64,000 nt of DNA from Octopus vulgaris (Eukaryota), in contig OX597836.1 of assembly GCA_951406725.2 (NCBI GenBank), positions 45,198,001-45,262,000 on the forward strand, written 5' to 3'. Position numbers and translations under genes: made by a program. The number at the start of each line of letters is the position of its first letter. The first letter of the stretch is position 1. The notes below the pieces were generated by a model. That model worked only from the letters and a program-made list of their open reading frames with translations. It searched no databases and was not told where the DNA came from. Shown piece by piece: positions 1 to 60,720 of this stretch.

Positions 1-241
1 CGTAAAATGTAAACTGGCAAAATATATTTATCCTAAATGCGATACAAAATAAGTTTGAGTAATAAATCAATGGTTAGGGTTGCAGGCTCTCATGAGAACT
101 TCCCTTCGGCATTCTAAAATACCTATATCGAAAGAATGGCCTTCCTTGATGTCCGTCTGTTAAATATGTGAAGCTTTTTCGAGTGACAATGAAAACAATT
201 TGCCTGTCCCTTTTTTATAACCTTTCTGATAAAGTCCTTAA

Positions 242-445
242 CCCTTCGTTACCAACCCGGCTAAAACCGACTCTGGCTCTGAGGTCTTGTTATAAGTATT
301 GAATTAAAATCTTCTGCCAAACCTTAGTCACAATCTATGTTCCCAACACTAGCTTAATGATGACGAAGTTCTTTTACTAAATTCTTTGTTATATTTAGAA
401 TTATTTGAAAGAAACGGAGCATCTCAAAATAGAGTAACGAAAGGG
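242..445. mobile_element. TTAA-flanked (piggyBac-type) MITE, ~210 bp family
   Basis: TTAA-CCCTT..AAGGG-TTAA. Related copies at 2992-3211, 7903-8114, ~21013-21218 and 49921-50129. A second TTAA family lies at 8356-8576, ~21554-21726 and ~24290-24458, and a third element at 20213-20496. Confidence 0.8.
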
Positions 446-1320
446 TTAAACGATCGCAACATAATTTTCCTGTGCGCACATCCACCCACACACAAACATG
501 TGTGTATATAAAATTATAGTTCCAGTCATTGGGTTGCTGCATGGTAGCACACCACTCTGAAGATTATTAAATTGGACGGAATTCACGGGCCTATTATAGT
601 AGTCGCACGTTGTGACTGTACTAAAAAAACCACATGGTTTCGAAGAGGAGTTTTTAATCACAGCCATACCTGCGCCTTGGGGTCGATGTAATCGACTTAA
701 TCCGTTTGTCTGCCCTTGTTTGTCCCCTCTGTTTAGCCCCTTGTGGGCAATAGAGAAATATATATATGTATGTGTTTGACGATATAGAGTATATGAACTA
801 GGGGCTTTCTTACTCAGTAAAACGTCTGAGCCATTGTATGATTACATGAAATCACAATGGGAGACCGTAGTCCTTGAGAACTTTGCCACTACTGGAACGG
901 CATGGAATTTGTTCGATCAGGGCTGATGTATATCTAACAATTTGTCTATCCTCTGAAGATTTGCAGTACTTAATTATTTGATAAAAGCCAATGTTTTGTA
1001 TAGAAGAGTGATTGGCAGTAAAAATATCCCCAAAATTATTTTAGTTATAAATTATATTATCGTTGTAATAAAATTTGCTTAATATTAATTTACATGAGCA
1101 AGTGATAGTCTTTCCAAAAAATAGTAAATGTTCCCAGAAATGGTTGGAAGTTATAAAAAATGAAATGTCTTGGGTGGAAATGAAGTTATCCTGAAGTGCT
1201 CCATGTAGCAATGTAGGGGAGAGGGTTAATGTGGTACTGGTAGGGGACAAGGAAGAAGCGATCAAAATGTTTTCCAGCAATGTACAATACTTGAGATCCT
1301 GGATCTGTTCTAAAACAATT

Positions 1321-2378: not shown

Positions 2379-2449
2379 TCGGGCAATGATGGAATTAAGA
2401 ATATTTGCTATATGAATACTAATGATTACAAATATTTTGCTGAGCCTGA
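2379..2449 (+). ncRNA. SNORD24: Box C/D snoRNA, U24/SNORD24-like, D'-guide type, copy 1
   Basis: tcgggc stem, C box ATGATGG, guide AAGAATATTTGCTAT + D' ATGA, C' ATGATTA, D CTGA, gcctga stem. The guide matches the recalled U24 5' element and pairs LSU UAGCAAAUAUUC (human Cm2352 equivalent). Confidence 0.82.
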
Positions 2450-2916: not shown

Positions 2917-3722
2917 GTGAGTAAATTCAAAATTTCTCTCTTCATTTTATAATAAAGTCTAGTGTTAGCAGTATTTTATGGAAGAACTTAACCCTTTTGT
3001 TACTGTATTTATTTTGAGATGCTCTGTGTTTCTTTCAATTACTTTAAATATAACAAAGAATTTAGTAAGATAACTTATTTATCATTTAGCTACTGTTAGG
3101 AACATAAATTGTGACTAAGGTTTGGTGGAAGATTTTAATTCCAAACTTCTGAAAACAAGATATTTGTACTCAGAGCCAGAGCCGGTTTCAGTCGGGCTGG
3201 TAACAAAAGGGTTGACCCTTTTGAAACTTTATGGTGATTTCTCCAAGTCAGATTTTCTGAGGAGTTTCATTGGATTCTATTTCTGGAATATCCAGTCAAA
3301 AGCCAGTGATTAATAGACCTGGACGGTTCTATTATTTAGCCAATGATCAATTCTAATCAAGCAGGCATGACCTAAAGTGTTTTGTCTTTCATTATCCAGT
3401 AAGTCCTTTCAATTATAAAATTGTAAAACTGATTTGCGGAAAATTGAACTAGTGGATTGAATTACCATTTAAAAACAGCAATGATTCTTTCTTCCACTTT
3501 TTCATTTCCTTCGTTTTCTATTCTAATATGATATTATGGTAAGATTTTCCAGGAATATTAGATTATAAATACACATAGCTTAGATTTTTTATACACCTTT
3601 TGTATTATATTTTGTAATTTATTATTGACTTGTTTAGTTCCTCACCATTATGCAGATTGAGTGTTCAATTTTATTTCTGTGGTAAAGAAATTGTGAGGTG
3701 GGCTCATGACTTCAGAAAATGT

Positions 3723-3793
3723 TCGGGCAATGATGGAATTAAGAATATTTGCTATATGAATATTGCTGATTACAAATATCTTGCTGAGCCTGA
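3723..3793 (+). ncRNA. SNORD24: Box C/D snoRNA, U24/SNORD24-like, D'-guide type, copy 2
   Basis: Near-identical to 2379-2449 within a ~190-bp duplication (about 2306-2492 vs 3646-3835). Guide, C, D' and D boxes intact. Confidence 0.82.
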
Positions 3794-7400: not shown

Positions 7401-8136
7401 ATACCTCTGTAAATTCTTGTTCTTAGTTAAGGCTTATGTAACTAGTTTTAACTAAAATACACTTCCCATGTGTAAATTCTGAAAAGTAGACTTTTGACAA
7501 AATAGGCATAATTTCATATGGAAATTGTGCTTCTATTATGAAGTTCAAGATGTAACGGTTTTATTTGTGTGCAATCTGTAGATAGAACACTAATATTATA
7601 TATGAGGTGTGTATATAGCTCATTGTATATCTGTGTTTGTCTCTTTGACATTGTGTGGTAGTTGCCATCATACTGGCTGCCATTTCCAATATATTTCATG
7701 AGGATATCTTGCCATGGAGAAATACTACCTTGCTTGGAATCAGGAAGGGCATTCAGCCATAAGAAGTATCCCTCAGTAAAGTCTGCCTGACCCTTGCAAG
7801 TATGAGAAAGTGGACGTTAAAATGTGTGGAATTTTTGGATTTAACAAGGACCTGAACATTATTGTGTAATATGTTCAGAAAATTGACAGGGTTTGTCTTT
7901 AACCCTTTTGATACTAACCCGGCCAAAACCGGCTCTGTGGTAAAATGTCTTGTTTTCATGTTTTGAATTAAAATCTTCCACCAAGCCTTAGTCACAATTT
8001 ACGTTCCTAACACTAGATTAATGATAACTAAGTTATTTTACTAAATTCTTTGTTATATTTAAAGTAATTGAAAGAAACACAGAGCATCTCAAAATAAATA
8101 CAGTAACGAATGGGTTAAAAAAAAAAGACAGTTTAT

Positions 8137-10025: not shown

Positions 10026-10339
10026 CTTGGAAATATGGCAGAACAAATATTAGTGAAAATCATATGAACTGAATTAGGTCTGTATATGTATTTTTTATTA
10101 CTATATAGTATTAGGTTTGACTTGCAGCTGAAAATTTTAAGGTTCTCTTGTTTGATGAATATAAATTATAGAGATATTAACTCGCAAGTAGCCTCTTATA
10201 ATTTCTCTAACTGAATCTTGCTAGCTGTGTAGTAAAATGCTGCATTTTATTAATTAGGAGCCCTAGTTCAGTAATAGTCCATTATATAGTTGCTTTGATA
10301 TGATTTGTTATGAAGTTATTTTTTTTGTATAATTTATCC

Positions 10340-10467
10340 TCACTGTTTTTGAACCTCTGCATTGTATGGTTTGTGCTGAGGCCAAGCAACAGTGAAATAA
10401 GAATACCAGTTCTGTAAACTCGGCATCCTCACTGATAGGGTTGTTGATTTGGTAACTGTTCACATGA
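10340..10467 (+). ncRNA. SNORA50: Box H/ACA snoRNA, ACA50/SNORA50-like
   Basis: 5' hairpin CACTGtttTTGAACCT...GGCCAAGCAACAGTG matches the recalled human ACA50. Pocket TTTGA/CAAGC brackets SSU GCUUG-U-C-UCAAA (human 18S Psi34). H box ATAAGA, ACA at 10462-10464. The 3' pocket AACT/TTTGG, 14 nt from ACA, is compatible with Psi105. Ends about 73 nt upstream of the exon 3 acceptor. Confidence 0.88.
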
Positions 10468-10690: not shown

Positions 10691-10777
10691 GTAAGTCCAG
10701 TTTTCTTTTGATTTGCCAAGATATAATGGCTATGTTGAGAATTTATATAGGCAACTCTTGATTATGTAATAGGTATT

Positions 10778-11462
10778 TTGGTATTCTTTCGATATGACTT
10801 GACAAAACCAAAGCACTTCAATTCAGCTGTTTCTCTGGAAGCACCTGGGGACTGATCCCGGAACCACGTGATTGGGAAGCAAGCTTCTTACCACAGAGCC
10901 ACGTGACTGTCAGTTGACGAAATGGGAGGAGGAGTAGAAGAAAGCGCTTGGGTTGTATGTCATTGCTTGTTCGCTTGCATACTTGTTCTTGTCTGTGTGC
11001 GTGTGTGCTTATCTATCTGTGCCTGTTCTGTTTTTATGTATTTATGAGTTGTGGAATATAGCTATACCGAAATTATGCCAGCAATGTCTCATTTTAATCT
11101 TGAAGAAAAAATGCCTTCCATATTTGTTCCTACCTGCTTCACGCCAAGCAGAAATATTGCAACATGCATGGAGAGAAGGAGGAACTACACAATGTATTTT
11201 ATGAATTTCATAAAAAAACATTCTTTGGGTTTAAATTAGTATAAAACTGCCTTCGTTATATCTATATTCCACAACACAAATACATAAAAACAGAACAAGC
11301 ATGCACACACAGAGAAAAGAACGTGCGGATAAGCACGCATGCATGTACAACCTATTGGCGTTCTTTTCCCATTTTGTCATCTGACATTTGACACGTGCTT
11401 CCATGGAAGCAGCCGAATTGAAGTGTTATTTGTCGAGTCATATCAAAAGAATACTGGTATTT
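10778..11462. mobile_element. MITE with ~65-bp imperfect TIRs
   Basis: gtattctttcgatatgacttgacaaa..cacttcaattc.. versus ..gaattgaagtgttatttgtcgagtcatatcaaaagaatac. The right part is duplicated at ~11868-12101. A related element at 57604-57891 shares the internal gaaattatgccagcaatgtctcattt. Confidence 0.68.
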
Positions 11463-11656
11463 TTTGAAAAGGAATTTAAAAATTGTCCACTGATTAGAGA
11501 GGGGTTGAAATAGTAGCTATTACTGGTTACCTAATGAAACTAGTCTAAATTCATGATTATTATAGAATCTAATTGAAACTCGTGAGGGGTGTATTTTGGT
11601 CAGAAATATGGTAACGAGAGGGTTAACTATAGGATGAGATAAGTGATGTTAAGACT

Positions 11657-11734
11657 TGGATAATGATGAAGTAAACTTGTCAGATTCCTGCCTGGTGATA
11701 ATCTAATCACTACCAACCGAGATCTCTGAGTCCA
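11657..11734 (+). ncRNA. SNORD24: Box C/D snoRNA, U24/SNORD24-like, D-guide type, copy 1
   Basis: tggat-a-ATGATGA ... ACTACCAACCGAGATCT-CTGA-gtcca. The guide pairs LSU AGAUCUUGGUGGUAGU with one G-U and one bulge; D+5 gives the human Cm2338 / yeast Cm1437 equivalent. Confidence 0.82.
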
Positions 11735-12541
11735 GTTTTAACTCTATTATGAATGATGAGCTTTGTTATAGTAACTTAGTAGATATTTTAAAAGTTTATT
11801 GTTAATGTATAACTCTTTTTGGTACCAACTTACCATATTTATGTATATATGTATGTATATATATACACACAGAACAAGCATGCACACACAGAGAAAAGAA
11901 CGTGCGAATAAGCACGCACGCATGTACAACCGATTGGCGTTCTTTTCCCATTTTGTCAACTGACATTTGACACGTGCTTCCATGGAAGCAGCCGAATTGA
12001 AGTGTTATTTGTTGAGTCATATCAAAAGAATACTGGCATTTTTTGAAAAGGAATTTAAAAATTGTCCACTGATTAGAGAAAGGTTGAAATAGTAGCTATT
12101 ATTTGTGTACCTGCTTTTGTCCCCATGCTGCAACTGAGTGCTCTTATACTACTGTACCCGACTGACCATACCGTGGTATATGACTTACAGCCAATGCAGT
12201 ACCAAGCATGATCAAGGTGAACTGGAAGAAATTATTAGGATTGTACAATTGTATAAAACCGTAGTGTCTACATTGACAATCATGTACAAGTGTATTTACC
12301 ATAGAATGTTTATAGCAGTGTTTCTCAACCTTTTTTACCCTTGCGTGACCCTTAAAATAAATTACATGCCTCAAGGAACCCCTGCATAAAAAAGAAAAAT
12401 TATATACCATATTTTTCTCATTTTTTCACTGTAGTATATTTTGATTATATATATATATATATATGTATATGTGTATATATATATATATATGTATTATATA
12501 TGTATGTATGTAAAGTTAGTTATTTAATGAAACTAGTTTAA

Positions 12542-15500
12542 CCCTTTCGTTACTATATTTCTGACCAAAATACACCACTCATGAGTTTCAATTAAATCCT
12601 AAAATAATCATGAATTTAGGCTTGTTTCATTAAATAACTAACTTTTTTACTTATCAACATACTGTGATATTTGGAACATAATTAAAGAAAGGGTTCTTAA
12701 TCAATTCTATTGCATAACTTTTGTCTCAAAGTGACTTTAATTACAGGTAAATCCAGGTAAATTGAGCAAAAGGTAAAAATATTAAAATTTTAAATTGAGC
12801 AAAAGGTAAAAAATTAAAATTTTGTTTAAACATCACCATAGAAAATGAATCATCAGCTAATATTCAAATGGGTATGCGACATAATTTTGATAAAGAAGAA
12901 TTGTGCACATCACTATATCATCAGTTGAATTTAATGCACAACAGGTGTACCATAAAGGTGGAATAAAGTGAAATAGTGGAATCCACCGTAAGTTTGACCG
13001 AACTAAAGAAATCGGTCGGAAAATAATATACGACCCTGGTTATGGTATGGAAGTGATAAATTCCAGACCACATCGTACCCTAAGCCATGCTGACTAACAT
13101 TAGTTTTCCCTGTATAAAAACTAAATCCACGCAGTACCCAGTATTTGCTTCACAAATTTCCCAAACTTTGAACCACGATTTTGGGTTTGGTTACGTTCTG
13201 CGTAAGTTTGTTTCCGAAGTGATCGCTTCAAACAATAACTTCCAGACCACATCGTACCCTAAGCCATGCTGACTAACATTATTTTCCCTGTATAAAAACT
13301 AAATCCACGCAGTACCCAGTATTTGCTTCACAAATTTCCCAAACTTTGAACCCCGATTTTGGGTTTGTTTACGTTCTGCGTAAGTTTGTTTCCGAAGTGA
13401 TCGCTTCAAACAATAACTTCCAGACCACATCGTACCCTAAGCCATGCTGACTAACATTATTTTCCCTGTATAAAAACTAAATCCACGCAGTACCCAGTAT
13501 TTGCTTCACAAATTTCCCAAACTTTGAACCCCGATTTTGGGTTTGTTTACGTTCTGCGTAAGTTTGTTTCCGAAGTGATCGCTTCAAACAATAACTTCCA
13601 GACCACATCGTACCCTAAGCCATGCTGACTAACATTATTTTCCCTGTATAAAAACTAAATCCACGCAGTACCCAGTATTTGCTTCACAAATTTCCCAAAC
13701 TTTGAACCCCGATTTTGGGTTTGTTTACGTTCTGCGTAAGTTTGTTTCCGAAGTGATCGCTTCAAACAATAACTTCCAGACCACATCGTACCCTAAGCCA
13801 TGCTGACTAACATTATTTTTCCCTGTATAAAAACTAAATCCACGCAGTACCCAGTATTTGCTTCACAAATTTCCCAAACTTTGAACCCCGATTTTGGGTT
13901 TGGTTTACGTTCTGCGTAAGTTTGTTTCCGAAGTGATCGCTTCAAACAATAACTTCCAGACCACATCGTACCCTAAGCCATGCTGACTAACATTATTTTC
14001 CCTGTATAAAAACTAAATCCACGCAGTACCCAGTATTTGCTTCACAAATTTCCCAAACTTTGAACCCCAATTTTGGGTTTGTTTACGTTCTGCGTAAGTT
14101 TGTTTCCGAAGTGATCGCTTCAAACAATAACTTCCAGACCACATCGTACCCTAAGCCATGCTGACTAACATTATTTTCCCTGTATAAAAACTAAATCCAC
14201 GCAGTACCCAGTATTTGCTTCACAAATTTCCCAAACTTTGAACCCCGATTTTGGGTTTGTTTACGTTCTGCGTAAGTTTGTTTCCGAAGTGATCGCTTCA
14301 AACAATAACTTCCAGACCACATCGTACCCTAAGCCATGCTGACTAACATTATTTTCCCTGTATAAAAACTAAATCCACGCAGTACCCAGTATTTGCTTCA
14401 CAAATTTCCCAAACTTTGAACCCCGATTTTGGGTTTGTTTACGTTCTGCGTAAGTTTGTTTCCGAAGTGATCGCTTCAAACAATAACTTCCAGACCACAT
14501 CGTACCCTAAGCCATGCTGACTAACATTATTTTTCCCTGTATAAAAACTAAATCCACGCAGTACCCAGTATTTGCTTCACAAATTTCCCAAACTTTGAAC
14601 CCCAATTTTGGGTTTGTTTACGTTCTGCGTAAGTTTGTTTCCGAAGTGATCGCTTCAAACAATAACTTCCAGACCACATCGTACCCTAAGCCATGCTGAC
14701 TAACATTATTTTCCCTGTATAAAAACTAAATCCACGCAGTACCCAGTATTTGCTTCACAAATTTCCCAAACTTTGAACCCCGATTTTGGGTTTGTTTACG
14801 TTCTGCGTAAGTTTGTTTCCGAAGTGATCGCTTCAAACAATAACTTCCAGACCACATCGTACCCTAAGCCATGCTGACTAACATTATTTTCCCTGTATAA
14901 AAACTAAATCCACGCAGTACCCAGTATTTGCTTCACAAATTTCCCAAACTTTGAACCCCGATTTTGGGTTTGTTTACGTTCTGCGTAAGTTTGTTTCCGA
15001 AGTGATCGCTTCAAACAATAACTTCCAGACCACATCGTACCCTAAGCCATGCTGACTAACATTATTTTTCCCTGTATAAAAACTAAATCCACGCAGTACC
15101 CAGTATTTGCTTCACAAATTTCCCAAACTTTGAACCCCGATTTTGGGTTTGTTTACGTTCTGCGTAAGTTTGTTTCCGAAGTGATCGCTTCAAACAATAA
15201 CTTCCAGACCACATCGTACCCTAAGCCATGCTGACTAACATTATTTTCCCTGTATAAAAACTAAATCCACGCAGTACCCAGTATTTGCTTCACAAATTTC
15301 CCAAACTTTGAACCCCGATTTTGGGTTTGTTTACGTTCTGCGTAAGTTTGTTTCCGAAGTGATCGCTTCAAACAATAACTTCCAGACCACATCGTACCCT
15401 AAGCCATGCTGACTAACATTATTTTCCCTGTATAAAAACTAAATCCACGCAGTACCCAGTATTTGCTTCACAAATTTCCCAAACTTTGAACCCCGATTTT

Positions 15501-16650
15501 GGGTTTGTTTACGTTCTGCGTAAGTTTGTTTCCGAAGTGATCGCTTCAAACAATAACTTCCAGACCACATCGTACCCTAAGCCATGTTGACTAACATTAT
15601 TTTCCCTGTATAAAAACTAAATCCACGCAGTACCCAGTATTTGCTTCACAAATTTCCCAAACTTTGAACCCCGATTTTGGGTTTGTTTACGTTCTGCGTA
15701 AGTTTGTTTCCGAAGTGATCGCTTCAAACAATAACTTCCAGACCACATCGTACCCTAAGCCATGTTGACTAACATTATTTTTCCTGTATAAAAACTAAAT
15801 CCACGCAGTACCCAGTATTTGCTTCACAAATTTCCCAAACTTTGAACCCCGATTTTGGGTTTGTTAACGTTCTGCGTAAGTTTGTTTCCGAAGTGATCGC
15901 TTCAAACAATAACTTCCAGACCACATCGTACCCTAAGCCATGCTGACTAACATTATTTTTCCCTGTATAAAAACTAAATCCACGCAGTACCCAGTATTTG
16001 CTTCACAAATTTCCCAAACTTTGAACCCCGTTTTGGGTTTGTTTACATTCTGCGTAAGTTTGTTTCTGAAGTGATCGCTTCAAACTAGCATACTGAAAAA
16101 AATAAAAGTCTAATGGTTTCACTTCCTAAGAAAGGCTATGGATAAACTTTATCTCCTCAGAAAAATTGCTAATAAAAGCATTTTAAAAGTTTTTTTACTT
16201 CATTCCGATGTAAAATCGCCTTCGCTGCATTGTCTCTTCGGAAGGCGCTGCTTTCATTTTCGGATAAAAAAATATTCATTATTTTGTTCACCACGTGCTT
16301 TAGTACCTATTTCATTCTTTTTCTTGATATCTCCCTATTTTCCGTTGACAAAGCTTTAAATTCAGAATCAATGCTTGATAACATGAAACTCCTATCCATT
16401 TTCAAAGTTGAAGAAAAATCGATGCCGAAAAACATGTGGAAAAAAATCTCCCAAAATTCACTGAGTTGAGATATCACTTCAAGCAATGTCGGATACTATA
16501 ACTTAACTATTTACAATGTCAAATCACATGCTTTAACGAATGTACCAACGAGATTTGGGTTCAAATTTACATTTAAATAACAATAGGTCCTCACGGCCGG
16601 GTTGGTATTATGGACCAAAAAATTTTTCGGCCGGCTTAGTAACGAAAGGG
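12542..16650 (-). mobile_element. Internally deleted piggyBac element
   Basis: Perfect 14-bp TIRs CCCTTTCGTTACTA / TAGTAACGAAAGGG with TTAA on both sides. Removing it restores a sequence matching the paralogous empty site at about 11532-11565. The minus strand has frameshifted piggyBac transposase motifs: FEAITSETN, GFKVWEICEANTGYC, YTGK, GLGYDVVW, YHNQGRILFSDRF. Confidence 0.88.
13061..16085. repeat. Tandem array of 17 near-identical 178-180 bp units
   Basis: Unit starts (TTCCAGACCACATCG) at 13061, 13240, 13418, 13596, 13774, 13954, 14132, 14310, 14488, 14667, 14845, 15023, 15202, 15380, 15558, 15736 and 15914. Units differ by a few substitutions and homopolymer indels. Confidence 0.97.
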
Positions 16651-16764
16651 TTAAATTAATGATTATTATAGAATTTAATTGAAACTCATGAGGGGTGTGT
16701 ATTTTTGTCAAAAATATAGTAACGAGAGGGTTAACTGTAGGATGAGATAAGTGATGTTAAGACT

Positions 16765-16842
16765 TGGATAATGATGAAGTAAACCTGTCAGATCCCTGCA
16801 TGGTGATAATCTAATCACTACCAACCGAGATCTCTGAGTCCA
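16765..16842 (+). ncRNA. SNORD24: Box C/D snoRNA, U24-like D-guide type, copy 2 (inside hAT element)
   Basis: Near-identical to 11657-11734; boxes, guide and stem intact. Confidence 0.82.
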
Positions 16843-17304
16843 GTTTTAACTGTATTAGGAATGAGGAGCTTTGTTATAGTAATTTAGTAGATATTTTAAA
16901 AGTTTATTGTTAATGTATAACTCTTTTTGGTACCAACTTACCTGAGATATATGTATATATATGTATGTGTTGTCCATAAATTACAGACATCACTAAATAT
17001 ATCCCCAATGATTGTTATATTTTTTGTTAACATAGGTTAGCTAGGATGATGTCTATATTACAATAGCCAATAACATGTTGTGCATGTATAGTAATATTAC
17101 GATCATGAAATTAATATTAGCTTATCTCACTCTTTCTCACGGAACCCTGGGAACCTCAGAAACCCTGGTTGAGAAATGCTGGTTTATAGTTTTGTATTTG
17201 TTAGTAAATACACAATCCTGTAATTGAATCCGACCAGAATTTAATTAGGTTGTATTTTAGTGCAATTACTTAAATGTATTGTTTTTTTTTGTTTCAAATT
17301 GCAG

Positions 17305-17525
17305 CAACTCAGACGTTTAAACTTCTGGACAAATATCGTCCAGAGACCAGGCATCAGAAAAAAGCACGTTTAAGGGCCCGTGCTGAGAAACGAGCTGCAG
17401 GTAAAGCAGACACACCAACAAAACGCCCCCCTGTTGTTAGGTCTGGAGCCAATACTGTGACCTCCCTTATAGAACAGAAAGCAGCCCAATTAGTTGTCAT
17501 TGCTCATGATGTTGATCCCATTGAG
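17305..17525 (+). CDS. RPL7A: RPL7A exon 4
   Basis: ttgcAG / GTAGGT; 221 nt, phase 1-0. Translates (A)[73 protein letters not shown], including the L7Ae motif [12 protein letters not shown]. Confidence 0.97.
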
Positions 17526-17752
17526 GTAGGTATTTACCCTAAGTGCATTGGATCTCTCTCTCTTTTACTTGTTTCAGTCGTTTGACTGCAGCCATGCTGG
17601 AGCACCGCCTTTAGTCAAGCAACTTGACCCCGACTTATTCTTTGTAAGCCTAGTACTTATTTGTATCGGTCTCTTTTGCCGAACTGCTAAGTGACGGAGA
17701 CATAAACACACCAGCATCGGTTGTCAAGCAATGTTGGGGGGACAAACACACA

Positions 17753-17796
<44 letters not shown>

Positions 17797-17863
17797 CATA
17801 TTTTGGTCAGAAATATGGTAACGAGAGGGTTAACTATAGGATGAGATAGGTGATGTTAAGACT

Positions 17864-17941
17864 TGGATAATGATGAAGTAAACCTGTCAGATCCCTGCAT
17901 GGTGATAATCTAATCACTACCAACCGAGATCTCTGAGTCCA
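17864..17941 (+). ncRNA. SNORD24: Box C/D snoRNA, U24-like D-guide type, copy 3 (intron 4)
   Basis: Identical in boxes and guide to 16765-16842. Confidence 0.82.
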
Positions 17942-19300
17942 GTTTTAACTGTATTAGGAATGATGAGCTTTGTTATAGTAACTTAGTAGATATTTTAAAA
18001 GTTTATTGTTAATGTGATACCAACTTACTTGAGATAGCTTCTATATAAATTTTCTGTTTAAAAGCGATATAAATTAAAATTTTTTAAAGTGTTAGTTTAT
18101 ATTCCAAACATTAGCTTAATAATTTCAATAAATTTGTTATTATTTTCTCAAACATTTCACGTGGAAAACACTAACATAACAGAGAGCATGATTTTTAATT
18201 AGCTGATGATGGTAATGATGAAATATATTGGGGGGATTAGATTCACACATTTTCAATGCTACTTTTAATTATTTGAATTACTCCTGTATATAAATCTACA
18301 CACATTAATTGAATTGCTCTTGTATGTACTCCAGTACAGGCTTTTACCATTTTCCTAAATATGGTTGGTGTCGAGTTATTTCCCTTTTAACCAGTTTGAA
18401 TTTGCTCTTATCTGAACCCATAGTTTAAAATTTTGCAAATAAAACAAAGAATGTTTGATCCCTTATAAAAAGTGAGCAAGTACCCCCTCATTACATGTAT
18501 CTTTGGTAATGTAATGTTGGCTAAATCATAGTTGGAATCCCTTTGTTGGTTGGTGCTTTCAACCTGGGTTCACCTTTGGCTACAAACTACAGCCCAACGT
18601 TTCAATTTCATAAAAACATTTACAAAAAAGACATTGTAAAATGAGGTCAACATGGGAATGAATTTACTTTGCAGATGTTGCAAATGATTGAATTATGCAC
18701 CAATTGTCTTGTCAGTAAATCTGTCTCTCTCTCTCCCCCTCTCCTGCGGAGGGGACCAGTCGATTAGATCAGCCCCAGTACGCAACTGGTCCTTAATTTA
18801 TCGACCCCAAAAAGTTGAAAGGCAAAGTCGACCTATATATATATATATATATATACATATATATATGTATATATACACATATATCTCGTTGCTGTCATAT
18901 GTCCCAAATTTGGCCAAATGTTTTTTTTTTTTAAATATTTAATTTTGCTTGGTCAAACTATTGTATCTCCAGCGCTGTTTCAGTTGAAAATTGCCAGTGT
19001 AGTACAACAGTTTAATATTTTTCAAAAGTGTAGTAAGTCCTACATAAGACAGTTTTGCAAAAAATATTTTCTGACTGAAAATATACTCGCATAGTTACGA
19101 TTTTAAGCACCCAGCAAAGTATTTATGAAGGCTGAACCTGTTGCTAATGTAAAAAGAAATGGAACGGTGAAACTATTGTTTCGCTTCCTGAAAATGCAAT
19201 GTTTTGAACTTGTGACACGTTTGCATAATAATGATATACACACACACTAACAGTATTGTAACAGCAGTAAAGGAGTTTGAAGCTATGGATGTAAGCAAAT

Positions 19301-19376
19301 TGGACAGTGATGAAGACAATTTATCAGTTACATCTCCATGGTGATATTTTATTTACTACCGAGATCTCTGAGTCCA
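19301..19376 (+). ncRNA. SNORD24: Box C/D snoRNA, U24-like D-guide type, divergent copy 4
   Basis: Perfect tggac/gtcca stem, GTGATGA, guide ACTACCGAGATCT-CTGA pairing AGAUCUUGGUGGU over 13 nt with two G-U pairs. Confidence 0.87.
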
Positions 19377-20085
19377 GTCGTTTGTAATGATTTTTTTTTT
19401 TTTTTTAGGTTCATTTAAATAATTTTGTGTTTTCTTAGAATTAGGGTTTTATTTTGTAAAATGTCCAATGAATAATGGAGAAATAAAGCAAGAACTTGAT
19501 TACTTATACAGGTGGAGTAAGTGATGAGTGGAGGTGAGGAAGGAATTCAGTGAGATTGAGATAATTTGTGTTTCATATACATTGTCATTAACACCTGCCT
19601 TCCATGCTAGCATGGGTGGGACTACATATGTATACACACACACTTATAAATATTTTTTGTCTCCGTTAGCATACTTTGTCAACTCTATTTGTTTATGCCA
19701 TTATTATTAATTCATTTTCTTTACTATTTTTATTATAACTATTGTTAATGTCACCTTCAAAAAACACATTCAGATTTGAATGGTTTTATACACACACACA
19801 AACACACACCTACTCTACCGTTGGTTGAGTCAGTGACTTGTTTACTCCATGGGGGTCAATGAGTATCATAAAGAAATGTCAGAACACCAGATCTGTTAGA
19901 CAGAAGTGTTAAATAGAAACAGTTTCTCAGATACTGAAATCATTGTTGGTTCTTTTGAAATAGTATTTTTTGTGCGCTTGTGCTTGTGCATCGGACAAGT
20001 AATTATATAAAACAAAGTTTGAATAATTCTGGTTTAAATTCCCAGCATACTTTGGCTTCATTTTTACTCTGGGTATTATCAATAG

Positions 20086-20160
20086 GATCACAGTGATGCT
20101 TGAATTTCTTCAACTGAATTTTTGTAATTTTGAAGACAACTTGACAACTTCTGAGTGATC
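20086..20160 (+). ncRNA. SNORD36: Box C/D snoRNA, U36C/SNORD36-like
   Basis: Perfect gatcac/gtgatc stem, C box GTGATGC, guide TTGAATTTCTTCA + D' CTGA (20114), D CTGA (20151). Pairs LSU UGAAGAAAUUCAA; D'+5 gives the human Am3703 / yeast Am2220 equivalent. Confidence 0.86.
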
Positions 20161-20583
20161 ATTTCTAATTGTGTCCCCTTCCCTGGCATCCCCTGCTTTC
20201 CTTGTGACTTAACCCCTTACCCGGCAGAAACGAATATATGCGTTTTGACCGAAATCGTTTTTTTCTATCTCTGGTGAGTTAACTCGCCAAAATCAACAGC
20301 AAACGAGTTCCTTCGTCTAAAAACGGGTTAACTCGTTTCTGCCCAAAGCGGTAATTTAAAATCAATATTATTGAATTAAAATTAAATAAGGTTTGAAATA
20401 TACCTCGAAATCACCATTCAAAACAGTGAAATAAAACAATTAAAAAATATGTCTGAAAAATTACATTTATTTTCAAAATAATTGTTGGGTAAGGGGTTAA
20501 TTCCAAATCAGATCTTGTCCTTTTATATATCTGTACAATACTTAGTATGATTTAGTATTAAAAGTTTTCAACCCACTTTTCAG

Positions 20584-20714: not shown

Positions 20715-22110
20715 GTAAGTATTACTCATTCCTCTTGTTTAATGTTAATTATATTTACATTTTAGAACAGTTTAATTAGTAAGTAAAAAATGTCAGACAA
20801 ACATTGTTAAATATGATAGAAAAAATTCTTGATATGTAATTTCCTTAATTTAGAGTAATATGGTTGACTTGGATCAGTGAATTGTACCAGTGAGAACTGG
20901 GATCAACTAATTGATCAATGTCAACTGTTGAGTAGAAGTATCAATATCGCCACAACAAAATCAACTGTTCAATGGGAATGGTTACCTATTTTCAATATTA
21001 ACCACATTTAAACCCATTCGTTATTTTATTTATTTTGAGATGCTCTTCAATTACTTTAAATATAACCAAGAATTTAGTAAAATAACTTGGTTATCATTCA
21101 GCTGGTGTTAGGAACATAAAATTGTGATTAAGGTTTGGGGGAAAATTTTAATTCAAAACTTATGAAAACATGATATTTGTAGCCAGAGCCGGTTTCAGTT
21201 GGGTTGGTAGTGAAAGTGTTAAGGTGGTGAGCAAAATTGCTAGCAGATTGGGTGAACTGCTTATCCTTATTTTGTTCATATTTGTTTTGAGTTCAAAAGA
21301 AATACCAGCTGAGCACTGGGTTGATATAATCAACCCCCAGAAATCTCCAAAGTTGCTGACATTGTGTCAAAATTTGAAACCAGTATTAAAGCTTAAACTT
21401 TACAACGCCATAATATTGCAGAGTAGATCCATGTGTTAGAGGATAACGTCTCTTCAGACATATCTCTGGATGTGAAAAATTATCCTCTGCTGGTTTTGAT
21501 AACAGCTGTTCCTGAACTATTTTCACATTGGATTACATCAGTGGTTGAATATACCTTTCAGCATTTAGATTTCTTGGTCTAACCTATTATTTATTCAAAT
21601 TGTTTTTGAGTTACACTCATTATCGTGTGTCTTCAAGATTTCAATGATGTGTTTGTATATTTTTAGAATGACTTTATACTGTAGATGTGAGAGGTTGGAT
21701 CTGGTGCTAGATTAAATGCTAAAGGGTTAATGAGGACAATTTCAGTTGTTTGATAAACTGAATTACCTGCTCATTGCGATTTGTCTGCATATACCACAAT
21801 CGCTTGCATGTATAATAATTGTAAAGCTACATTCAATAAGGCGAGACCATTGCATTATAGGCACAAGGCTTTCAGAATATCTGTAGGCGTGAGCACAGGT
21901 GGGGATTGAACCTAGGGCTTTATGGTTACATATATTTTCTAATCATTCAAAACAATTGTTTGTGAAGGGTGGAATTGATTTTATTAAATGTGGTTTTATA
22001 TAGTTATCTTCAAGATCACCTGTATAAGTGAATTACTGGAGAGAGAATGGTATAATCATTAACAAATGAGATTTGTTAATTATAATGGTTCTTGTATGTT
22101 AAAATTTCAG

Positions 22111-49510: not shown

Positions 49511-52190
49511 AAGATATGCTAATCGTTTCAGTATAGTTTGTCCTGTAAAAATTCTCGCTATGTCTCAATGCATTTGACATACCTGACCTTATGTCTGTAA
49601 TCTGTTAAGCTAAGACATATGTGTAAGAATTATTTATAATCTTTGTTACAATGGCAGACGATACGTTCGGCCTGATACCGAAATGGAGATAAGTACTTCA
49701 GTGGATATGTTTCTATCAAAGCTTCACTGATCTCGCGTGTATCAGTAAAACTAAGACATATCTATAAGCATCGTAATGCTTATAGATATGTCATCTTAAT
49801 ATTAACACGTGTCTTAAATGTTAAGCTGTCTTTACAAGCATTAAGTCTTATGCATTGAAATGTGTTCATATGCATTGAGATGTGTTAACACGTATAAATA
49901 GATTAGTTTATAAGCATTAACCCTTTCATAACCATATTTCTGTTGAGATACTCTGTGTTTCTTTCAATTAATTTTAAATATAACAAAGAATTATTAAAAT
50001 AATGTAGTCATCATTCAGCTAGTGTTAGGAACAAATTGTGACTAAGATTTGGTGGAAGATTTTAATTCAAATCTTTTGAAAACAAGACATTTGTATTACA
50101 GAGCCAAAGGCGGGTTGGTATCAAAAGGGTTAAGACATACTTTAAGTATTGTGTTTATACGTATACATATTAAAGTGTGTTATAAGTGTTAAGATGGGTA
50201 TTTAAGTATCGGTTTCAAATTTTGGCACAAGGCTAGCAATTTCGAGGAAGAGGGTAAATCGATTACATCGATCCCCAGTGCGTAACTGGTACTTATTTTA
50301 TCGAGCCCGAAAGGATGAAAGGAAAAATTGACTTTGGTGGAATTTGAACTTAGAACATAAAGACAATTGAAATGCTTTGTCCGGTGTGTTAACGATTCTG
50401 CCAGCTCGCTGCCTTAAATGCGTGTTATAATATTAAAAGGGCGGTGAGCTGGCAGAAACGTTAGCGCGCCGGGCGAAATGCTTAGCAGTATTTCGTCTGC
50501 CGCTACGTTCTGAGTTCAAATTCCGCCGAGGTCGACTTTGCCTTTCATCCTTTCGGGGTCGATAAATTAAGTACCAGTTATGCACTGGGGTCGATCTCTG
50601 TCCTTGTTTGTCCTCTCTATGTTTAGCCCCTTGTGGGTAATAAAGAAATAGGTATTTCGTCTGTCGTTACGTTGTGAGTTCAAATTCCGCCGAGGTCAAC
50701 TTTGCCTTTCATCCTTTCGGGGTCGATAAATTAAGTACCAGTTACGCACTGGGGTTGATATAATCGACTTAATTCCTATGTCTGTCCTTGTTTGTCCCCT
50801 CTGTGTTTAGCCCCTTGTGGGTAGTAAAGGAATATATAATATTAAAATTTGTTTCAAATACAACGACGTGTCTATATATAACAGTGAAGGCGGCGAGCTG
50901 GCAGAAACGTTAGCACGTCGGGCGAAATGCGTTGCCGTATTTCGTCTGCCGTTACGTTCCGAGTTCAAATTCCGCCGAGGTCGACTTTGTCTTTTATCCT
51001 TTCGGGATTGATAAATTAAGTACCAGTTACGCACTGGGGTCGATGTAATCGACTTAATCCGTTTGTCTGTCCTTGTTTGTCCCCTCTGTGTTTAACCCCT
51101 TGTGAGTAGTAAAGAAATATATATATAGCAGTGTTTAAATGCGTTTGTAAGTATAAAAAAATGTATTGTGATGTATTCCACATGATGTGATCATCGCACA
51201 GCCTTATCTTTCAGATTATCTTATAATCTTCTGTTTTTCAAATCTTTCAGATGCTGTCAACATGGCGGCTTTCCATCTCAAGCACTTGAACATCAACGTT
51301 CATGAAACACCTTAACTTCAATAGAATGACAAAAAGGTATTGTTACAGTGTTAGACATTTCTGCATTACGATATTCTCATAGTAGTGGTAGTGGTGTATT
51401 GTGATTTAACTAAAACAAAGGTTCTCAGTCATTTAAAAAAATCTATGGACCCCTTTGATTAATGTTTTATTCTGATGGACCCTCACAGCCATTCGGTATT
51501 TATAAACTAGTTTTACAGAAACTTCTGTCAAAATTCCTATTTTGTTTTTCTCCCTTTAACTTGTGTAGGTTCAACTACACAAAATGTTAGAGAAAGAAAC
51601 CCAGCTGTTTCTTGCAATACATAACCATTACATACATCCAAAGCAAAATGTTTTTGTGGGGCCTTTGAAATGTTTTCATGTTCCCCAATTTACTATTTTT
51701 GTTGCGTGAACCCCTAAAAATCATATATGGACTCTCAGGGGCCATATGGACCCTGGTTGAGAACCAATGAACTAAAATGAGTACTTTTCCTCGGGATTCA
51801 AATTGCTGTGAGTACCAGGCAAACATTTAATGATCGCAATGGCCTGAAACTTAAGAGGCGCGAGAAAACCTTCTATATGTATGCATATATATATCCATTC
51901 ATATAATGTTGGTAAATGAAATAGGGATAAGAATGTGTATTGTCTGTTTAATTGGAAAATTCTATATGTGGCTGAAGATTGCTCGACATTTTAAAATTGA
52001 TGTAATACTTACAGAGTTTAATAAAATGAAGTAGCATGAAACAATTGTACTACTCTACCTTGGATATCCTTGTTGCTTATTTTGATTATAATCACCCCAT
52101 TTGATTTATATGGATAATACCATACAAAATGCTGGTGCCTTTAACTTCAGTACCACATTCATCTGAATCTTAATTTTGCTGAACTTATGT

Positions 52191-59899: not shown

Positions 59900-60608
59900 T
59901 GACGCTATCACCCTTCTCCTCCTTTGTCTTTGCAAGTTTGCAGCTATTAAAGTGAAAACAGTGAATCCGACAGCGATAAAGAAAACGAATTGGTACCTGA
60001 ATGGAGTGAAAATTTAAAAACTGTTTCTTTCGGTGATTTTTCTGAAGAAACTGCACCAAGCCACAGACTTTCCCAGAAGAGTAAAGCCTTAGACTATTTC
60101 TATTTACTTTTTCGAATGAGCCCATTTGAAATCATTACGGCAGAAACGAAACGTTACGCTAAACGTAAACAAAACGAAAGAAAGGATAGTTTGTTATTTC
60201 CCACAACCTTAAATGAAATTAAGGCCTATTTTGCCATAAATATTATTATGGGTATCAGAAAGTTACCCAGAATAACAAATTCTATCGTAAAATTTTGTTG
60301 TATACCCAATTGAATATTAGCTAATAACCCATTTTCTATAGCGATGTTTGAACAAAATTTTAATAATTTTATATATTGTTGAATTTACCTGTATCTACCT
60401 GCAATTAGAGTCACTTTGTGACAAAAATTATAGTATAGAATTGGTTGAGGACATTTCATTAAATTATCTTCCAAAATTCACGTTAATATATTGATAAATA
60501 AAAAAGTTATTGTTGTTTAATGAAACCAGACTAAATTTATGATTATGTTAGAAATTAATTGAAACACATAAGGGGTGTATTTTGGTCAGAAATATAGTAA
60601 CGAAAGGG
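59900..60608 (+). mobile_element. piggyBac remnant (transposase N-terminus + right end)
   Basis: ALDYFYLLF...FEIITAETKRYA...TTLNEIKAYFAINIIMGIRKLPRI. Ends TAGTAACGAAAGGG-TTAA. The last ~230 bp is the reverse-complement homologue of 12542-12770. Confidence 0.85.
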
Positions 60609-60720
60609 TTAAGAAAAACCAAAAAATATTTTATTCTTTATAAATGTTGTATTCAAAATAACATTTTCTTTTAAGAATGTGTATATAACAAAGTATGTGT
60701 ATATAACTACGTGACTTATA

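What the first reader, a model, noticed from the sequence alone, without database searches (positions are those of the whole stretch)
12308..17189. A snoRNA gene captured inside a hAT element with intact ends (nested hAT > snoRNA cassette > piggyBac > satellite)
Seen: hAT TIRs and a perfect GTTTATAG TSD enclose 4.87 kb. Between two (TA)n tracts (~12447-12510 and ~16946-16968) lies a cassette of an old piggyBac end plus a full U24-type snoRNA. A younger piggyBac has inserted into that cassette at TTAA. Inference: a Pack-type non-autonomous element carrying a guide RNA gene, which an active hAT transposase could in principle move into new host introns.
Basis: partly seen in the sequence, partly recalled or inferred. 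Interest (0 to 1): 0.72.

Follow-up and report, generated by a model that had tools for sequence, protein, structure and literature searches.

The report
Local snoRNA copy patched into transposon
A small guide-RNA gene sits inside a gene-less jumping-DNA remnant in a ribosomal-protein intron, but three more copies lie within a few kilobases outside any such element, so it was likely pasted in once by local DNA repair, a process already described in animals, rather than being carried around by the transposon.

Summary
The anatomy is real: hAT-type ends with an exact 8-bp duplication enclose 4,866 bp in an RPL7A intron, holding a ~320-bp cassette with a box C/D snoRNA, split at TTAA by a 4.1-kb piggyBac whose 178-bp satellite looks like amplified transposase sequence. 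The vehicle reading is not supported. The same snoRNA occurs three more times in this gene without hAT ends (two copies 95-97% identical with flanks, one 76%), and four other intron segments are duplicated likewise. In four public runs the hAT arms pile up 280-1,500 times deeper than single-copy DNA, the snoRNA body at most 2.8 times, which the local copies explain. Family copies differ from this hAT by ~12%, the cassette copies from each other by 3-5%, so the cassette likely entered after the hAT inserted. The right end is degenerate (TIR 13/15, about 22 bp shorter than the family majority). The snoRNA has only U24's 3' guide; the 5' guide is on a separate snoRNA in the same gene. Best reading: a single-copy Pack-TIR made by local gap filling, i.e. 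ordinary snoRNA cis-duplication that landed in a resident MITE. No whole genome was available for a direct copy search.

The parts
12308..12315 (+). left 8-bp target-site duplication
   Evidence: its reverse complement resembles the target consensus of other family copies in loose ends (table 7)
12316..12445 (+). hAT MITE left arm; 15-bp TIR at 12316-12330 identical to the family TIR
   Evidence: high-copy, many different flanks
12446..12511 (+). left TA-rich tract, likely the break site in the MITE
   Evidence: junction
12512..12541 (+). cassette, left piece: interior of an older piggyBac end, ending in the TTAA target
   Evidence: 24 of 25 match to the family
12542..16650 (.). later piggyBac insertion, 4,109 bp, 14/14 TIRs, TTAA duplicated, decayed transposase remnants on the minus strand
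   Evidence: relative at 59951-60310 hits Pfam DDE_Tnp_1_7, E 1.3e-07
13056..16085 (-). 178-bp satellite, 17 copies, likely an amplified piece of piggyBac transposase coding sequence
   Evidence: DDE_Tnp_1_7 E 0.035, below the curated cut-off, for 1 of 2 satellite frames tested
16651..16734 (+). cassette, right piece: rest of the older piggyBac end with its TIR and TTAA
   Evidence: 88.6% to the inner element's end
16766..16841 (+). snoRNA copy S2, box C/D, guide for the LSU rRNA cytidine that U24's 3' guide targets
   Evidence: identical to S3 over 76 nt
16842..16945 (+). cassette 3' flank; part of it is a low-copy repeat in its own right
   Evidence: 12-23 times single-copy depth at 16860-16895
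16946..16968 (+). right TA-rich tract
16969..17181 (+). hAT MITE right arm; TIR 13/15, subterminal region shorter than the family majority
17182..17189 (+). right 8-bp target-site duplication
   Evidence: arm-TSD-exon bridged by a contig in 4 of 4 runs (table 8)
11532..11858 (+). cassette copy S1 (snoRNA 11658-11733), same intron, no hAT ends, between two copies of a ~250-bp segment
11280..11532 (+). segment A', direct duplicate of A (11859-12112), flanking S1
   Evidence: 11 mismatches in 243 aligned positions
17799..18036 (+). cassette copy S3 (snoRNA 17865-17940), next intron, no hAT ends; candidate donor site
19302..19376 (+). older paralogue S4 of the same snoRNA
   Evidence: 76% to S2; SNORD24 31.3 bits, below gathering; 15-bp rRNA duplex
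17305..17525 (+). RPL7A-like exon following the host intron (10691-17304)
   Evidence: Pfam Ribosomal_L7Ae E 2.3e-07; AG/GT boundaries; SNORD36 at 20088-20159

Best explanation
A short, high-copy hAT mini-transposon sits in an RPL7A intron, and a ~320-bp piece of nearby intron DNA with a box C/D snoRNA was likely pasted into it once, after it had inserted, likely when a break in its TA-rich tract was repaired by copying from a neighbouring site. Shown: the ends, the TSD, the cassette, three other local snoRNA copies without hAT ends, and the later piggyBac insertion that splits the cassette. Inferred: the order S3 site (donor) to S2 (in the hAT) to S1 (a template switch that also duplicated segment A), repair guided by 3-5 bp microhomologies, and that the composite has never transposed. 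The snoRNA is predicted to guide 2'-O-methylation of the conserved LSU rRNA cytidine that U24's 3' guide targets, redundantly with its paralogues.
For: Cis source: S1 ends about 0.45 kb upstream of the hAT and S3 begins about 0.6 kb downstream; pairwise differences 11, 6 and 7 of 217. Same copying without a transposon: only one TIR pair with TSD in the window, yet four other intron segments of 108-438 bp are duplicated at 93-97%, three of them holding sub-threshold Rfam snoRNA hits. Copy contrast: arms 282-1,487 times single-copy depth in 4 of 4 runs; snoRNA body 1.6-2.8 times in X1, X7, X12, and 0-0.6 in X6, which was read only to 76% and has a hole. Timing: listed family pieces differ from this copy by 11.9% (12 left rows) and 12.3% (21 right rows) against 3-5% among cassette copies. 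Junction microhomology of about 3-5 bp on the left and 3 bp on the right. S1/S2 (5.1%) and A'/A (4.5%) diverged alike. Tan et al. 2021 (PMC8277862, sections 7 and 8): 56.9% of animal Pack-TIRs lie within 15 kb of the parent, 67.6% have microhomology, 1.4% are multicopy.
Against: No genome-wide search for cargo-bearing copies could be run. The tool states that contig depth is no copy number, its tables are cut (over 4,000 pieces unlisted per call), and a diverged cargo copy could be missed. The cassette's 3' flank shows 12-23 times depth, read here as an independent small repeat because the snoRNA body does not share it; this is unverified. No listed contig joins left arm to right arm, so the cargo-free family form and the native TA tract are inferred, and no listed contig bridges cassette to right arm. 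S3 lacks about 85 bp of the old piggyBac end that S2 has, so naming it donor needs a later loss. Short microhomologies in AT-rich DNA are weak evidence. The timing rows are the longest pieces only and some are one locus seen in several runs.
Confidence: 0.78

Rival explanations
1. A mobile Pack-hAT that has carried, or can carry, the snoRNA to other loci.
For: Both ends and an exact TSD survive; the family is very abundant; multicopy Pack-hATs exist in frogs (PMC8277862 section 7); S2 has 0 private changes in 76 nt of snoRNA against 6 in 141 nt of flank, P=0.075.
Against: snoRNA body depth at most 2.8 times single copy; donor-like copies lie next door, whereas multicopy Pack-TIRs lay distal to the parent; right TIR has 2 mismatches and depth falls about 45- to 95-fold over the last 36-bp bin because family copies run on differently; hAT ends need subterminal sequence (PMC10368747 passages); the element is now 4.9 kb.
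Confidence: 0.07
2. The cassette was captured during a transposition-linked event, for example repair after excision, or a local hop within RPL7A of an element that had already captured it.
For: Would give the same cis source and microhomology; a hop of under 1 kb would not show as extra depth.
Against: Arms look about twice as old as the cassette copies; both arms keep family homology up to the TA tracts, so little was lost; no second TSD or footprint pair in the window.
Confidence: 0.07
3. The cassette was reverse-transcribed from unspliced RPL7A intron RNA and inserted in the TA tract.
For: Same orientation as the host transcript; a near-duplicated ~22-bp TA-rich word lies on both sides; snoRNA retrocopies inside DNA transposons are known (PMC1687206 section 10).
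Against: No A-rich tail; about 140 nt of upstream flank is included; the near-duplicate is low-complexity; landing beside the parent is not expected; C/D snoRNAs mostly duplicate by cis recombination (PMC8178906 passages).
Confidence: 0.05
4. The two arms belong to different elements, or the composite is an assembly artefact.
For: No contig shown links the arms; the satellite is hard to assemble.
Against: Exact 8-bp TSD that fits the family target consensus; same TIR and same order of depth on both arms; S2-specific letters matched with 0 differences over 181 bp in X1.
Confidence: 0.03

Closest known systems
Single-copy animal Pack-TIRs made by transposition-independent gap filling (Tan et al. 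2021, PMC8277862; abstract, sections 7 and 8, passages, supplement search)
   Same: Short non-autonomous hAT, internal breakpoint, filler from under 5 kb away, short microhomology, apparently single copy.
   Different: [quoted passage not shown] 'octopus' has 0 hits in the main text. A later piggyBac and satellite are nested inside.
snoRNA cis- (intragenic) duplication (PMC2653536 and PMC8178906, passages)
   Same: Box C/D paralogues in the same host gene, copied with short flanks.
   Different: Two copies share one intron here (S1 and S2; S3, S4 and U36 share the next), and one landed in a DNA transposon.
snoRNA retroposons inserted in DNA transposons (Weber 2006, PMC1687206; passages and section 10)
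   Same: A snoRNA copy inside a DNA transposon, inserted after it.
   Different: Those have an A-rich tail and their own TSD and lie far from the parent; this has no tail and lies beside it.
U24/SNORD24 (Rfam RF00069; chicken RPL7A intron 1, 28S C2112 by the 3' guide and C2126 by the 5' guide; PMC2653536 table rows)
   Same: Host gene RPL7A; 3' guide points to a C 14 nt upstream of the second target C, the same spacing.
   Different: The two guides are on separate snoRNAs here: S1-S4 carry the 3' guide, copies at 2381-2447 and 3725-3791 the 5' guide.

Membership tests
hAT non-autonomous element | 8-bp TSD, nTnnnnAn pattern | tested here: met
   pattern from PMC10368747 passage
hAT non-autonomous element | short TIRs | tested here: met
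   13/15, left identical to family
hAT non-autonomous element | dispersed copies with different flanks | tested here: met
   17-34 contigs per run with unlike flanks before 12316 in 3 runs listed (table 7)
hAT non-autonomous element | link to a hAT transposase with the same ends | not testable with these tools
   no genome; the Charlie/Buster-like label is recalled, from no call
Single-copy Pack-TIR (gap filling) | non-family filler between arms of one element | tested here: inconclusive
   filler shown; contiguous cargo-free family copy not seen
Single-copy Pack-TIR (gap filling) | parent copy in cis, under 15 kb | tested here: met
   S1 and S3 within 1 kb of the ends
Single-copy Pack-TIR (gap filling) | single copy | tested here: met
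   by depth only, 3 of 4 runs informative; no genome search
Single-copy Pack-TIR (gap filling) | microhomology at breakpoints | tested here: inconclusive
   3-5 bp in AT-rich DNA, no chance test
Single-copy Pack-TIR (gap filling) | element without filler at the orthologous site of an outgroup | not testable with these tools
   all 4 runs hold the hAT right end here; contigs break at the TA tracts
Multicopy (mobile) Pack-TIR | several cargo copies with distinct TSDs | tested here: not met
   snoRNA body at most 2.8 times single-copy depth; indirect
Box C/D snoRNA | C and D boxes, terminal stem, guide of 10 nt or more next to D | tested here: met
   10 contiguous bp, 16 bp with one bulge, -23.7 kcal/mol; 32 of 2000 shuffles reach 10 bp on the 698-nt rRNA piece; stem
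Box C/D snoRNA | expressed as a stable small RNA | not tested
   both read-laying runs went to DNA-type contig runs; one search offered contigs only
SNORD24 (RF00069) | Rfam gathering score 41 | tested here: not met
   S2 20.9 bits, S4 31.3 bits
SNORD24 (RF00069) | both guides on one RNA | tested here: not met
piggyBac | TTAA TSD, TIRs starting CCC, DDE_Tnp_1_7 remnants | tested here: met
   (strong hit in the relative at 60 kb, weak in the satellite)
snoRNA retroposon | A-rich tail and own 7-19-bp TSD | tested here: not met
   no tail; only a low-complexity near-duplicate

The most novel reading that the evidence does not exclude
A hAT mini-transposon that captured a working snoRNA gene and has moved it, or could be made to move it, to new introns: a DNA-transposon route for snoRNA trans-duplication beside retroposition and recombination.
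Probability: 0.07. Interest if true: 0.65.

Novelty: new member of a known kind. Interest (0 to 1): 0.22.

Why it matters
As read here it is a clean junction-level example of snoRNA cis-duplication by repair into a resident MITE, with an unusual cargo for a Pack-TIR; modest value. The five searches made (listings only, apart from the papers named) showed no report of a DNA transposon mobilising a snoRNA, so a second cargo-bearing copy with its own TSD would be a new route of snoRNA spread. The library lacks most subscription journals.

Tried and rejected
Whole-genome search: none held. A 21-nt stretch of the left arm found 0 viral contigs and 1 metagenome contig, which matched only 27 bp and is chance. 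No other copy of either arm in the window; the third TIR-like match at 51755 has no TSD partner and only weak similarity to the arms. Earlier-findings look-ups by place and by the right-arm sequence gave nothing. The X6 hole over the snoRNA is no evidence. Folding gave no unusual stability for S1-S3 (z about 0; S4 -2.45). Selection on snoRNA bodies: 3 private changes inside, 9 outside, P=0.35. No D' guide of 9 bp or more against the rRNA piece for S1-S4 (only 698 nt of LSU tested). Pfam gave no hit for 3 of 6 translations. A direct link between the arms and a contig across the piggyBac junction were looked for and not found among listed pieces.
Full report
Setting. The region is an intron (10691-17304) of an RPL7A-like gene: the next exon hits Pfam Ribosomal_L7Ae, splice sites are AG/GT, and SNORD36 lies at 20088-20159. 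That the animal is an octopus rests on my recall of its SINE and on unchecked notes of this scan, not on a test. No genome was held.

Observation. The TIR pair is not chance. The satellite's minus strand reads like piggyBac transposase (DDE_Tnp_1_7 E 0.035, below cut-off, in 1 of 2 frames tested), and a 76% relative of the element near 60 kb hits that family at E 1.3e-07. The piggyBac split the cassette at a TTAA that reads CTAA in copy S1 and in two family copies, so it came last.

The snoRNA. S2 (16766-16841) has C and D boxes and a terminal stem. Against a eukaryotic LSU rRNA piece fetched for the purpose (L001, not from this animal; LSU_rRNA_eukarya E 6e-86, with the same target letters in the Rfam consensus) its guide forms 10 contiguous pairs, 16 with one bulge; the fifth nucleotide from box D faces a C. 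A different snoRNA (2381-2447, 3725-3791) points to the C 14 nt further on. Chicken U24, in RPL7A, guides two Cs 14 nt apart with its 3' and 5' guides (PMC2653536 table rows). So U24's two jobs are predicted to be divided between two snoRNA families here. S2 scores 20.9 bits on SNORD24, under the gathering score of 41: it works like half of U24 but does not pass as a member. The fetch pattern was built from the guides, so finding a complement was expected; the independent part is that the hit is conserved rRNA at U24's spacing. Expression was not tested.

What the finding leaves out. The cassette is also at 11532-11858 (S1, same intron) and 17799-18036 (S3, next intron), and an older paralogue S4 is at 19302-19376. 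Differences over the 217 shared bases are 11, 6 and 7. Neither S1 nor S3 has hAT ends. Four other intron segments in this gene are duplicated at 93-97%, three with weak snoRNA hits. The gene copies snoRNA-sized pieces locally without this transposon.

Copy number. Four of 24 runs (organisms A, A, B, C) were laid on both flanks. Relative to the exon-side single-copy contig, summed depth is 282-1,487 times on the arms in 4 of 4 runs and 1.6-2.8 times on the snoRNA body in 3 runs; X6 has a hole. Three local copies explain that. The tool warns that this depth is no copy number, so only the thousand-fold contrast is used. Against my reading, the cassette's 3' flank reaches 12-23 times; I take it for a separate small repeat, unverified. 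Family copies show many different flanks and a target consensus like this TSD. The arm-TSD-exon junction is bridged in 4 of 4 runs, so the hAT insertion is shared by three species labels; the empty site was not seen.

State of the ends and timing. The left TIR equals the family's. On the right, the best-supported loose ends (24-47 contigs per run) continue after 17147 with about 22 more bases of subterminal repeats, a shorter form also occurs (16 and 24 contigs in two runs), and depth drops about 45- to 95-fold over the tip. Listed family pieces differ from this copy by about 12% (12 left rows, 21 right rows, taken from 64 listed pieces after dropping the locus's own contigs, piggyBac and other rows; gaps not counted; some rows repeat one locus), against 3-5% among cassette copies. 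Capture after insertion follows as an inference.

Order of events (inferred). S2 and S3 share sequence up to the last base before S2's TA tract, after which S3 runs on into ordinary intron; S2 keeps more of the old piggyBac end at its 5' side than S1; S1 shares S2's 3' TA-rich tract and lies between two copies of segment A that diverged as much as S1 from S2 (4.5% and 5.1%). The simplest path is S3 site to S2 by repair of a break in the MITE's TA tract, then S2 to S1 by a template switch, then the piggyBac and its satellite. S3's missing 5' part needs a later loss beside a SINE. One low-depth contig of organism C runs unbroken across the TTAA site and begins with 26 letters that do not fit S1's upstream, a hint of S2 before the piggyBac; its letters were not shown.

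Comparison. Tan et al. (PMC8277862; abstract, sections 7 and 8, passages) report 370 animal Pack-TIRs, 208 of them hAT, 1.4% multicopy, 56.9% within 15 kb of the parent. This locus fits that class on source, size and apparent copy number; the outgroup test could not be run. Cis-duplication is the usual route for C/D snoRNAs (PMC8178906 and PMC2653536 passages), and snoRNA retrocopies inside DNA transposons are on record (PMC1687206 section 10). PMC11933835 (passages) notes snoRNA families enriched in plant TE-associated variants without showing capture; PMC8967140 (passages) lists hAT-Charlie among cephalopod DNA elements; PMC10368747 (passages) gave the hAT target pattern and the need for subterminal sequence. 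I found no report of a snoRNA-mobilising DNA transposon (listings) or in Tan's 12 supplementary files.

Verdict. Real nested structure; likely a one-off local snoRNA duplication into a resident, decaying hAT MITE (0.78); mobile vehicle 0.07. New member of a known kind; interest 0.22.

Noticed in passing
window 2381-2447 and 3725-3791 versus 11658-11733, 16766-16841, 17865-17940, 19302-19376: U24's two rRNA guides appear divided between two separate snoRNA families within the same RPL7A gene.
   Followed up: partly
window 10691-17304 and 17526-20583: Several C/D snoRNAs share single introns (two in one, three in the next), which the one-per-intron trimming model (recalled) does not easily allow; unchecked notes report the same elsewhere in this genome.
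   Followed up: no
window 1032-1465/5253-5689, 2303-2498/3647-3842, 6261-6368/9235-9342, 7002-7148/8135-8281: Four more local duplications of 108-438 bp; three hold weak snoRNA hits (SNORD53/92-like, U24 5'-guide type, SNORD103-like); the fourth has no Rfam hit.
   Followed up: partly
window 13056-16085: A 99%-homogeneous 178-bp satellite apparently born from piggyBac transposase coding sequence.
   Followed up: partly
window 11280-11532 and 11859-12112: S1 is flanked by a ~250-bp direct duplication, like a very long target duplication.
   Followed up: partly
window 10338-10467: SNORA50-like H/ACA candidate, 43.4 bits, below gathering 90.
   Followed up: no
window about 16845-16931: Cassette 3' flank present at 12-23 times single-copy depth in 4 runs; identity unknown.
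   Followed up: no
window 59951-60612: Older piggyBac relative with a transposase N-terminal remnant.
   Followed up: partly
window 234-450, 2988-3213, 7899-8120, 21007-21224, 49917-50140: Five copies of a ~220-bp MITE with piggyBac-like ends.
   Followed up: no
L001 1-698: A contig of the viral collection carries eukaryotic LSU rRNA, likely host contamination.
   Followed up: no
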